Positions 21,001-24,000 of a stretch of DNA of 46,543 nt are shown in pieces. A program made the position numbers. Position 1 is the first letter of the stretch. Each line of letters begins with the position of its first letter. This DNA comes from a virus (lineage: Duplodnaviria > Heunggongvirae > Uroviricota > Caudoviricetes), in the IMG/VR virus record IMGVR_UViG_2651869692_000004, positions 1 to 46,543 of that record; one strand, written 5' to 3'.

Positions 21001-24000
21001 TAAGATCACCAAGCAGAGCAATAAAACCTGGTCCCTGACGCATCCGGTGGATGACGCAATTACCCTGCTGACACAGGGCGGCAGACTGACCTGTAAGTTC
21101 CGCCTGTCAGGCGCACTGACCAACAATCAGTTCGGGCTGGGGATTTATCTGTATACGGATGCTCCCGTTCCTGATGGTGTGGCGATGACGGGTACCGGTA
21201 ATCCGTTCCTGATGTCGTACTTCACTCAGACCACTGACGGCAGAGTGAATCTGATGCATCACAGGAAAGCCGGAAACACGAAGCTGGGGGAGTTCGGCGA
21301 TTACGGTAACGACTGGCAGACGCTGGAGCTGGTGTTCACCGCCGGCAGTGCCACGGTTACTCCGAAACTGAATGGAGTGGCTGGCCCGGCATTCCAGGTT
21401 ATAAAAGACGGTCTGACACTGGGACTGAATGCGCTGACGCTGACGGATGTTACAAAAAATGCAGCGTATGGCGTTGAGATAGAAAGTCTGGTGCTGGAGA
21501 TAAATGCACCGGCAGCATAATAAAAAAAGAGCCAGCGACTGACCTGAAAGAAGACGCTGGCTAAAAGGCCTTATATGGTTTGTAGAGACTTATTTTTCAC
21601 AGACAGCAATGATGCCTGTCAATATATTATCAATATGCGGATTGTTTCAGTTACAGATGCTTTATTAAGGAAAAAAACAGCCAGCACTGACTTTCGGTGG
21701 AGAGGTGCTGGCTCAGAAGGATAGTTGGATTTCACATGATACTTATGCCTGGCGGTATATTTTCTGACAGACAGTGACGGGTGTTGTCAAGATATTGTGT
21801 CATTTATAACCTGAATCAGGGGAGGCCGGAATGTTATCTGGCATTTTTAGCAGAGCCTGAATGCCATAATCACGGCTCCCGGAGTTGGCCGTCAGTGGGT
21901 GACACTGGCGGTTTTTTTGTTTTTCTTTACTTTCATTTTCTGTCGGCGGTGACGGAGACATACATCAGATGGAAAAAATCACAACGGGTGTGTCATACAC
22001 CACGTCAGCGGTGGGGACGGGATACTGGTTACTGCAGCTGCTGGACAAAGTCTCTCCGTCCCAGTGGGTGGCAATCGGTGTGCTGGGGAGTCTGCTGTTT
22101 GGCCTGCTGACGTATCTGACTAACCTTTATTTCAAGATTAAAGAAGATAAGCGTAAGGTGGCGCGGGGAGAGTAGTCGATGAATAAACAATACGAACTGG
22201 TTGTAAAATGAATATTTCTAACTGAAAAAACGTTCCATGAGGTAAGAAAAGGTCACAGGCAATCAATAACAGGACGTGATGAAAGACCCTTGCATTTGTG
22301 CGCTTTCTCTTTAGATAGCAGCAGATACTGAAAATCTGAGTTGTCGGGGAGTCAGGGATACAGCTGTGCAAGAGTTGGTCATTGTGATTCCATTGAAATC
22401 CTGTATGCCATGAAGGGCAGGATTTTATGGCTACCTGAGCTTTGGTGATAGTAAGTTGAAAATTCGCATTTTTTGCTGACATGCGTAACGAGAATCCCAT
22501 AAGCAGGGAGGACTTAATTCTTCATTAACCCATGCGTTGATATTATGTTTCAGCCGTTGAAGCATCAGCGGTGTTAATGTTGTGGTAATAATATCCAGCG
22601 TTTTATGTGAGATCTTACCGTAAGGGTCTGCAAGAATGCTGCTTGTTGCTTCGTTATTATCTGCCATCAGAAGAAGTAACTCTGATTTAACGTTTTCTGT
22701 CATTAGTTGTAAAAATCTTCTGCGCAAACTTTCTTTACTGTTCATTTATATGGCTTCATTTGTTGTAATCTGCTGCGTCTCAAGGGATATGTTTATGAGA
22801 GCGACCATGAGTGTTGGATTATATACCTAACATATCAAGGGATTAGAAATCGATAAATCCCCATGAACGAAAAAATAAAATACGGCCTGTCGGCTGCCGT
22901 TCTGGCGCTGATTGGTGCAGGTGCTTCTGCGCCTGAAATCCTCGACCAGTTTCTGGATGAAAAGGAAGGTAACCACACCACGGCATACCGTGATGGTGCG
23001 GGGATCTGGACCCTCTGCCGTGGTGCCATTCTGGTGGATGGTAAGCCTGTTATTCCTGGCATGAAGCTGTCAAAGGAAAAATGCGACCGGGTTAATGCCA
23101 TCGAACGTGACAAGGCGCTGGCATGGGTGGAGAAAAACATCCGGGTGCCGCTGACCGAACCCCAGAAAGCGGGGATCGCGTCATTCTGTCCGTACAACAT
23201 TGGCCCCGGTAAGTGCTTCCCGTCGACGTTTTATAAACGAATTAATGCAGGCGATCGAAAAGGTGCCTGTGAGGCGATTCGCTGGTGGATTAAGGACGGT
23301 GGCAGAGACTGCCGTATCCGTTCAAATAATTGCTACGGTCAGGTCTCACGGCGTGACCAGGAGAGCGCGCTGGCGTGCTGGGACATCGACAGATAGCAGA
23401 ATATTTTCCTGAAAAATGACGTTGGCCAACGCGGGTGGATAACACGAAATCCTGAAAACTGGTAAAACCTAAGTGAATAAAAGTAAAAACCCCGTTTGTT
23501 GGCAGCAAGCGGGGTTTTGTGTTTTCTGACCTTGAGTAAGGCAAGGGAGAAATTATGGGTAGGGAGGTACTTTCCCTGTGAGGAAGTATAAAAGATTCTT
23601 TCTGAGGTTGTCCATTATGAAAGGCATTGAAGTGGAGACGCCAGCCAGTCTGGATTTAACAAGAGCGGCAGCTTTTGCCATTCGTATTGTGGCCATTGCT
23701 GTTCTGGTCTGGGCAATCCGTTGGTGGTGATATGAACCGTGTTCTGTGCGTGGTTATCATTGTCCTGCTGGTGGCCTGTGGTGCGCTTAGTCTGGGGCTG
23801 AATCATTACCGTGATCACGCCATCATCTACAAAGAGCAGCGCGATAAAAAAGCCAGTGAGCTGGAGCTGGCGAACGCGACAATTACTGATATGCAGATAC
23901 GCCAGCGTGATGTCGCTGCACTTGATGCCAGATACTCGAGGGAATTAGCCGATGCGAGAGCTGAAAATGAAACTCTGCGTGCTGATGTTGCCGCTGGTCG

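What the first reader, a model, noticed from the sequence alone, without database searches (positions are those of the whole stretch)
22176..22862. AT-rich reverse-strand insert splitting pinholin and SAR endolysin
Holin and endolysin are usually adjacent and translationally coupled. Here ~0.7 kb of lower-GC DNA separates them and carries at least one plausible reverse-strand ORF (104 aa, 22431..22745). A reverse-strand gene here would be expressed independently of the late operon and could be a moron; the insert also uncouples S and R expression.
Basis: partly seen in the sequence, partly recalled or inferred. Interest (0 to 1): 0.5.

Follow-up and report, generated by a model that had tools for sequence, protein, structure and literature searches.

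The report
Reverse-strand accessory gene between holin and endolysin
The 0.7 kb between the holin and endolysin genes of this E. coli lambda-like prophage holds one real, conserved, backward-facing gene of unknown function and the wreck of a forward-facing gene; this slot is usually filled in related phages, so the arrangement is ordinary.

Summary
A 687-bp spacer (22176-22862, GC 0.39) separates an S21-type holin from a SAR-type lysozyme, and the 104-aa reverse ORF (22431-22745) is a real gene. It matches PHROG_1853 (E 3.5e-47). Homologs at 49-79% identity keep the same length and start, dN/dS is 0.13-0.39, and the AlphaFold model is confident (pLDDT 89, five helices). No Pfam, NCBIfam, PADLOC, PDB or BFVD relative was found.

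The overlapping 120-aa ORF has no support. The left part of the spacer is a dead forward-strand gene: a 10-codon stub of a YdfR/DUF1327-family gene plus a decayed C-terminal remnant.

The premise that S and R are normally adjacent fails for this phage group. Of 75 related loci, 71 have a filled S-R gap of 380-1320 bp. Sequenced phage genomes in that group carry genes in the gap too, among them Stx2 phage 86 (orf5/orf6) and PhiR12_1, whose recorded host is K-12.

The spacer is 100% identical in 631 of 5426 complete E. coli genomes, and the gene is already annotated (EDL933_1276; WP_000138558.1, with a start that is probably 14 codons too short).

Best reading: an autonomous moron, probably expressed in the lysogen. 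Its expression and function are untested. Interest is low to moderate.

The parts
21969..22175 (+). S21-type class II holin (pinholin family), 68 aa. Its 3' end GGGGAGAG (22165-22172) is the Shine-Dalgarno for whatever gene follows.
   Evidence: PF04971 E 1.9e-32. In loci where S and R are adjacent, the same GGGGAGAG-TAA lies 8 nt before the R ATG.
22179..22211 (+). Stub of a forward-strand YdfR/DUF1327-family gene: ATG plus 10 codons (MNKQYELVVK) and then TGA.
   Evidence: Identical to the first 10 residues of the 263-aa DUF1327 protein of Stx1_14040 (DUF1327 E 7.5e-34). Phage 86 orf5 starts MKKKYELVVKG. DNA 22176-22214 matches the start of a 'YdfR family protein' gene at 97% (H94).
22252..22424 (+). 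Decayed, frame-broken remnant of the C-terminal domain (PHROG_1085 type) of that forward gene.
   Evidence: An HMM of five partner C-domains hits 22252-22380 at 16.0 bits across two in-frame stops. None of ~492 shuffles exceeded 4.6 bits. A terminal '..MKGRI' at 22401-22424 in another frame matches the family's C-terminal LKGRI. L065 shows a better-preserved equivalent remnant in the same place. No similarity is detectable at DNA level.
22431..22745 (-). Intact reverse-strand gene, 104 aa, PHROG_1853. Soluble five-helix protein of unknown function.
   Evidence: PHROG_1853 E 3.5e-47. Homologs of 104-106 aa at 49-79% identity share the N-terminus. dN/dS 0.13-0.39. AF2 pLDDT 89, pTM 0.79. Annotated as the 104-aa EDL933_1276 (PMC4765031 Add. 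file 1). PGAP's 90-aa version uses the internal ATG at 22703.
22746..22825 (-). Cassette-specific upstream region of the reverse gene. Candidate -10 TATAAT at 22823-22818 (reverse strand) and a weak SD-like GAAG about 11 nt before the ATG.
   Evidence: Read directly from the sequence. TATA(T/C)AAT is conserved in the closer clade but not in the phage-86 clade, which has a good GAGGA SD at the equivalent spot. The consensus promoter scan did not call it. Promoter function is inferred only.
22826..22862 (+). Leader of R, shared with other filled-gap relatives (TAACATATC.AGGGATT..AAATCGATAAATCC). It carries a 10-bp deletion just before the ATG and has no canonical SD.
   Evidence: Comparison of 80 loci and alignments. 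In relatives lacking the reverse gene, the same sequence directly follows the stop codon of the forward gene.
22863..23396 (+). SAR-type (R21-like) lysozyme, 177 aa.
   Evidence: PF00959 E 5.7e-23. A Gly/Ala-rich weakly hydrophobic N-terminus and an E-x8-D-x5-T motif are read directly from the translation.

Best explanation
The S-R spacer is one state of a mosaic accessory slot that most relatives of this lysis cassette have filled. It has two parts. The first is a dead late-strand gene: a YdfR/DUF1327 N-terminal stub that is still served by the holin-embedded SD, plus a decayed PHROG_1085-type C-domain. The second is an intact, autonomously inherited reverse-strand gene (PHROG_1853), which is a moron. 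I infer that this gene is transcribed from its own promoter in the ~80 bp next to the R leader while the prophage is repressed, antisense to the silent late operon. It makes a soluble five-helix protein that acts through protein-protein contacts for the benefit of the lysogen or prophage, not in lysis. After induction, Q-modified transcription from pR' should read through the spacer to R, which initiates from its own leader, and the convergent late transcription should override the moron. Shown: the gene is real, is under purifying selection, always sits between S and R in reverse orientation, and occurs independently of the forward partner. Inferred: the promoter, expression in the lysogen, continued R expression and the biological role.
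For: Coding and constraint. Position and orientation are conserved in every locus with flanks, 77 of 79 IMG/VR loci plus Stx2 phage 86 and Stx2_12E129. Autonomy: the gene occurs alone in at least three lineages, the window type (gap ~690), L065 (gap 678) and L071/72/75 (gap ~542, only ~95 bp after the holin). It stays intact where the forward partner is frameshifted (L003), or cut to 28 aa with R itself frameshifted and S absent (L006). Conversely, the partner C-domain is common without it (Stx2_95; about 24 of 80 loci). Composition differs from the flanks. No credible + strand terminator lies in the spacer. The R leader is shared with other filled-gap relatives. The same prophage carries other reverse-strand accessory genes, namely PD-Lambda-1 (E 5e-198) and the small ORF X032, which is translated in uninduced EDL933.
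Against: There is no expression evidence for this gene. EDL933_1276 appears in PMC4765031 only as an annotated length-matched control, without numbers. No consensus sigma-70 promoter and no intrinsic terminator flank the gene. The candidate TATAAT is not conserved across the whole family and the SD in this allele is weak. The window-type allele is at least 99% identical in 623 records, so its intactness there may partly reflect recent spread. It is absent from all 50,697 phage records, so lysis competence of prophages with exactly this arrangement, which includes a 10-bp deletion in the R leader, is unproven. The biochemical function is unknown: Pfam, NCBIfam and PADLOC gave no match, PDB and BFVD fold searches gave nothing significant, and the family is restricted to E. 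coli-type prophages.
Confidence: 0.6

Rival explanations
1. Orphaned half of a two-gene module. The reverse protein would be the immunity or antitoxin-like partner of the late-strand PHROG_1085 protein, neutralising leaky expression in the lysogen, and it would survive here after the partner died.
For: The two genes abut convergently, only ~8-10 bp apart, in several diverged lineages. In three lineages the forward gene has decayed while the reverse gene is intact, which is the polarity expected for toxin loss.
Against: The partner C-domain is frequent without the reverse gene (Stx2_95; about 24 of 80 loci). The reverse gene also occurs with no trace of the partner (L072). Convergent rather than operonic layout. 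No PADLOC or Pfam toxin-antitoxin signature. The partner model is too poor to analyse (pLDDT 53).
Confidence: 0.12
2. Lysis-timing or lysis-safety factor. The protein, or its antisense transcript running into S, would damp holin or endolysin activity, for example by preventing accidental lysis of the lysogen.
For: Exclusive location inside the lysis cassette. No terminator was found between the gene's stop and the holin on the reverse strand, so read-through antisense to S is possible.
Against: The gene remains intact in L006, where S is absent and R is frameshifted. Strong protein-level constraint argues against a purely RNA role. The protein has no membrane segment (GRAVY about -0.3 to -0.7) and pI varies from 5.2 to 9.6 across the family.
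Confidence: 0.1
3. Functionless hitch-hiker. The ORF would be a relic carried along by recombination in the S-R hotspot, without current selection.
For: No known domain, narrow taxonomic range, weak RBS and promoter signals in this allele. Rare frameshifted or internally deleted variants exist (P0001, P0013, P0016).
Against: dN/dS is 0.13-0.39 over dS 0.5 to above 2. Length and start are conserved at 49% identity. The predicted fold is confident. The adjacent forward gene decayed beyond DNA recognition while this gene stayed 72-78% identical in DNA to L003/L007.
Confidence: 0.1

Closest known systems
Stx2-converting phage 86 orf5/orf6 (AB255436) and Stx2_12E129 genes 290/300
   Same: Same slot and same architecture: S, then a forward YdfR-family or PHROG_1085 gene, then a reverse 104-aa PHROG_1853 gene, then R.
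   Different: Only 49-53% protein identity, and the forward gene is intact there. In the window it is reduced to a 10-codon stub and a decayed remnant. All are annotated 'hypothetical' and none has been characterised.
ydfR (DUF1327) between essQ and rrrQ in the E. coli K-12 Qin prophage, and YdfR-family genes in Stx phages (e.g. Stx2a_1447)
   Same: Shows that the S-R junction of this holin/lysozyme pair routinely carries an extra gene (the K-12 Qin gene order is from my own knowledge). The window keeps the first 10 codons of such a gene.
   Different: ydfR is on the late strand and presumably a late gene. The surviving gene here is on the opposite strand and is unrelated in sequence.
Lambda bor and the 'moron' concept (Juhala et al. 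2000, as cited in PMC4104026)
   Same: An accessory gene next to the lysis genes, opposite in orientation to the late operon, present in some relatives and absent in others, and with deviant base composition. Bor expression in lysogens is established knowledge.
   Different: No sequence or fold similarity. No lipoprotein signal. The promoter and terminator that define a textbook moron are not evident here, and expression is untested.
PhiR12_1 S - DUF1327 gene - reverse 86-aa ORF - R
   Same: Analogous layout with a small reverse-strand ORF in the same slot, in a phage whose recorded host is K-12.
   Different: The reverse ORF is unrelated (hhalign probability 0.5%). Its 'DUF1823' label is below the Pfam threshold (15.3 bits against a cutoff of 25).

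Membership tests
PHROG_1853 (phage protein family, unknown function) | Significant match to the family HMM | tested here: met
   E 3.5e-47, residues 1-102 on profile positions 57-158 of 159. Phage 86 orf6 matches at E 8.4e-50.
Moron (independent accessory transcription unit in a late operon) | Present or absent at the same junction among otherwise related phages | tested here: met
   The reverse gene is in 11 of 80 loci that share a lysozyme of at least 93% identity. The other loci have different fillers or none.
Moron (independent accessory transcription unit in a late operon) | Base composition different from flanking phage genes | tested here: met
   GC 0.38-0.39 against 0.52-0.545, though 10% of equally long windows in this sequence are as AT-rich.
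Moron (independent accessory transcription unit in a late operon) | Own promoter upstream and terminator downstream | tested here: inconclusive
   The consensus scan found neither. A TATAAT at 22823-22818 has a poor -35 and is conserved only in the closer clade. The hairpin after the stop lacks a U-tract.
Moron (independent accessory transcription unit in a late operon) | Expressed from the repressed prophage | not testable with these tools
   No expression data found.
YdfR / DUF1327 family (forward-strand remnant) | Match to PF07041 | tested here: inconclusive
   Only 10 codons survive, too short for an HMM. They are identical to the N-terminus of a bona fide DUF1327 protein.
PHROG_1085 C-terminal domain (forward-strand remnant) | Match to a profile of the domain | tested here: met
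   16.0 bits with two in-frame stops. 0 of ~492 shuffles scored 4.6 bits or more. It is a pseudogene, not a functional member.
Type II toxin-antitoxin or effector-immunity pair | Obligate co-occurrence and co-transcription of the two genes | tested here: not met
   Each gene occurs without the other. The genes are convergent. No PADLOC or Pfam signature.
Known anti-phage defence systems (PADLOC-DB 2.0) | HMM match to a catalogued defence protein | tested here: not met
   0 families at E up to 1.
Rfam RNA families (sRNA in the spacer) | Covariance-model match | tested here: not met
   No hit in 22176-22862 at E up to 1.
Phage 21-type pinholin / SAR endolysin cassette | S21-family holin plus a lysozyme with a SAR N-terminus and an E-D-T catalytic motif | tested here: met
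   PF04971 and PF00959. The SAR-like segment and E-x8-D-x5-T are read from the translation. The dual-start (antiholin) motif of S21 is not present: there is a single Met start at 21969.

The most novel reading that the evidence does not exclude
The 104-aa reverse-strand protein founds a new, E. coli-prophage-restricted class of lysogeny-phase effector with a fold that has no structural relatives. Examples would be a superinfection-exclusion or defence factor, or a safety factor acting on the pinholin/SAR-endolysin pair. It would be embedded in the lysis cassette so that late transcription switches it off exactly when lysis is wanted.
Probability: 0.15. Interest if true: 0.55.

Novelty: new member of a known kind. 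Interest (0 to 1): 0.3.

Why it matters
The immediate value is modest. It corrects a likely start-codon misannotation (90 versus 104 aa) that is propagated in hundreds of RefSeq genomes. It shows that the S-R junction of the Stx-phage-type lysis cassette is a recombination slot that is filled in about 95% of relatives. It also identifies an uncharacterised protein family (PHROG_1853), carried by about 12% of complete E. coli genomes including O157:H7, that is retained while neighbouring late genes decay. That retention pattern is typical of genes useful to the lysogen. If a function such as exclusion, defence or lysis safety were found, it would add a new prophage-encoded fitness factor in pathogenic E. 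coli.

Tried and rejected
- **Protein family searches.** Pfam, NCBIfam and PADLOC gave nothing for the 104-aa, 120-aa and 64-aa ORFs.
- **RNA families.** Rfam at E up to 1 found nothing in the spacer.
- **Profile search.** A search of 1.84 billion representative proteins found 21 hits, all family members apart from one spurious HEAT-repeat protein.
- **Partner structure.** The prediction was too poor to use (pLDDT 53).
- **Link to PhiR12_1.** A relationship to its reverse 'DUF1823' ORF was rejected.
- **Toxin-antitoxin idea.** Rejected on co-occurrence.
- **DNA similarity to the partner.** blastn of 22212-22430 found nothing, so only the protein-profile evidence supports the remnant.
- **X030.** This 315-nt phage gene in PMC4765031 looked like a candidate but is the PerC gene.
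- **Literature.** Searches by accession, peptide, locus tag and topic found no study of the gene. The Sakai Ribo-seq supplements lack it.
- **Promoter.** No motif is conserved across the whole family.

Full report
**Context.** The window is a lambda-like prophage of E. coli. The gene order is integrase, recombination genes, cI/cro-like regulators, O/P, nin region, Q, three tRNAs, a NanS-p-type sialate esterase, S, R, Rz, terminase, head and tail. It is 99.9% identical over its first 25 kb to a prophage of strain TB354.

**1.
- The holin (21969-22175) is an S21-family class II holin (PF04971, E 1.9e-32). The lysozyme (22863-23396) is PF00959 (E 5.7e-23) with a SAR-like N-terminus.
- The two genes are 687 bp apart. 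The spacer GC is 0.39, against 0.52 and 0.545 for the two genes and 0.506 for the window. About 10% of equally long windows here are as AT-rich.

**2. The 104-aa reverse ORF is a real gene.**
- It matches PHROG_1853 at E 3.5e-47.
- A search of 5.8 billion proteins and a profile search of 1.84 billion representatives found only a small, E. coli-prophage-restricted family. Members share 49-79% identity, nearly all are 104-106 aa, and they share the N-terminus.
- Pairwise dN/dS against five homologous loci is 0.13-0.39, with dS from 0.5 to saturation.
- AlphaFold2 on a 22-sequence alignment gives pLDDT 89 and pTM 0.79, a five-helix protein. The protein is soluble and pI varies from 5.2 to 9.6 across the family.
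- The conserved N-terminal 14 residues, and a good GAGGA Shine-Dalgarno at the equivalent place in the phage-86 clade, indicate that the true start is 22745. PGAP's 90-aa WP_000138558.1 starts at the internal ATG 22703. The EDL933 annotation EDL933_1276 uses the 104-aa form (PMC4765031 Additional file 1).
- The 120-aa ORF 22138-22500(-) and the 64-aa + strand ORF have no family match.

**3. The left part of the spacer is a dead forward-strand gene.**
- Four bases after the holin stop there is an ATG followed by ten codons, MNKQYELVVK, and then TGA (22179-22211). The holin's terminal GGGGAGAG serves as its SD.
- These ten residues are identical to the start of the 263-aa DUF1327 protein of Stx1_14040 and close to phage 86 orf5.
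- Further on, a profile of the C-terminal domain of the forward 'partner' proteins (PHROG_1085) hits 22252-22380 at 16 bits across two in-frame stops. None of ~492 shuffles exceeded 4.6 bits. A terminal ...MKGRI follows in another frame.
- L065, a 66%-identical allele of the reverse gene, carries a better-preserved remnant in the same position.
- At DNA level this segment no longer resembles intact partners, while the adjoining reverse gene is still 72-78% identical to them.

**4. Comparative anatomy.**
- In all loci with flanks (77 of 79 IMG/VR loci, plus four contigs from assemblies and two Stx2 phage genomes), the family member lies between S and R on the strand opposite to them.
- Often a 190-330-aa forward gene sits between S and the reverse gene, convergent and abutting. 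Phage 86 orf5 is DUF1327 plus the C-domain. Other partners have a coiled-coil N-terminus plus the C-domain.
- The two genes are separable. The reverse gene stands alone in the window type, in L065, and in L071/72/75, where it lies ~95 bp after the holin.
- The reverse gene stays intact where the partner is frameshifted (L003). It also stays intact in L006, where the partner is cut to 28 aa, R is frameshifted and S is gone.
- The partner C-domain is common without the reverse gene (Stx2_95; about 24 of 80 loci).

**5. A filled S-R gap is the rule in this lineage.**
- Among 75 IMG/VR loci with a lysozyme at least 93% identical and a holin upstream, 4 have S and R adjacent (8 nt apart, with R using the GGGGAGAG SD). 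The other 71 have gaps of 380-1320 bp.
- Sequenced phage genomes with genes in the gap include Stx2a_1447 (a 114-aa YdfR gene), PhiR12_1 (recorded host K-12; a DUF1327 gene plus an unrelated reverse ORF), Stx1_14040 and phage 86.
- R is preceded in the filled-gap loci by a shared ~37-45-nt leader without a canonical SD. The window-type allele has a 10-bp deletion in that leader.
- No credible + strand terminator lies in the spacer. By established knowledge, Q-modified RNA polymerase reads through terminators in any case.

**6. Distribution.**
- The 687-bp spacer is 100% identical in many strains. It is present in 631 of 5426 complete E. coli genomes (754 places, up to 3 per genome), including O157:H7 EDL933.
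- It is absent from all 50,697 phage records. There only the ~53%-identical phage-86 type is found.

**7. Function.**
- The partner's structure prediction was unusable. No paper treats the gene.

**8. Interpretation.**
- The best-supported reading is an autonomous accessory gene (moron) in a recombination-prone slot of the lysis cassette. It is kept by selection independently of the late genes around it, and is therefore most likely useful in the lysogenic state.
- Its promoter is inferred only. A TATAAT lies at 22823-22818 with a poor -35 and is conserved only in the closer clade. No terminator is evident.
- The rival readings are an orphaned partner of the forward gene, a lysis-safety or antisense role, and a functionless relic. 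All are less well supported but none is excluded.

**9. Verdict.**
- This is a correct observation of an already-annotated but uncharacterised gene in an arrangement that is ordinary for this phage group.
- Its main points of interest are the differential retention of the reverse gene, the probable start-site misannotation, and an orphan fold.

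Noticed in passing
window 21619-21735 (-): A 38-aa ORF, MKSNYPSEPAPLHRKSVLAVFFLNKASVTETIRILIIY, is identical to 'X032' of Neuhaus et al. 2016 (PMC4765031). That paper reports it as translated in uninduced EDL933 (RIBOseq RPKM 650, coverage 0.81). It is a reverse-strand small gene between the esterase and the holin.
   Followed up: partly
window 19360-19532 (+): Full-length match to the prophage sRNA family STnc100 (RF02076, 100.8 bits, E 9.5e-22) just upstream of the sialate esterase gene. A 2026 preprint relates STnc100 to the PasD sRNAs and places them at this position.
   Followed up: partly
window 21521-21968, hairpin 21887-21913 (+): The esterase-holin intergenic region has a strong terminator-like hairpin followed by a poly-T run. 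The Pas sRNA preprint places PasA/PasC exactly between the sialic acid esterase gene and the holin/lysozyme operon, so this may be a PasA/C-type sRNA. This was not tested.
   Followed up: no
window 23397-23731: The R-Rz gap of ~335 bp contains a 15-bp-stem terminator-like hairpin (23486-23518, +). It lacks the antirepressor (ant) gene that Stx phages carry here. PGAP annotates a 37-aa hypothetical gene at about 23617-23730.
   Followed up: no
window 14247-15749 (-) and 12340-13887 (-): An intact PD-Lambda-1 (SNIPE; DUF4041 + T5orf172) anti-phage defence gene (PADLOC E 5e-198) lies next to a 515-aa HD-domain protein. Both are on the reverse strand in the nin region. In strain TB354 the PD-Lambda-1 gene is split by IS1.
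   Followed up: partly
window 22847-22862: The window-type allele has a 10-bp deletion in the otherwise conserved R leader: AAATCGATAAATCC/CCATG against ...CCTGATAAATATCCATG. This variant (10 of 80 surveyed loci) appears to go with the window-type cassette. Its effect on endolysin translation is unknown.
   Followed up: partly
window 21969: The holin has a single Met start (68 aa, MEKITTG...) and no upstream in-frame Met. It therefore lacks the dual-start antiholin/holin arrangement of phage 21 S. Some relatives encode 69-71-aa versions.
   Followed up: no
L017 756-1457 (-), Stx1a phage Stx1_14040: An unannotated 233-aa reverse-strand ORF lies in the S-R gap of this phage and overlaps the 3' end of the annotated DUF1327 gene. 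It has no Pfam match. It may be another reverse-strand occupant of the same slot, or it may be spurious.
   Followed up: partly
window 22176-22862 versus the phage collection: The window-type spacer is in 11.6% of complete E. coli genomes and in about 47 IMG/VR prophage-derived contigs, but in none of 50,697 deposited phage genomes. Either such prophages are rarely induced or sequenced, or they are often defective. PV15-279 and EDL933, for example, show IS insertions and frameshifts nearby.
   Followed up: no
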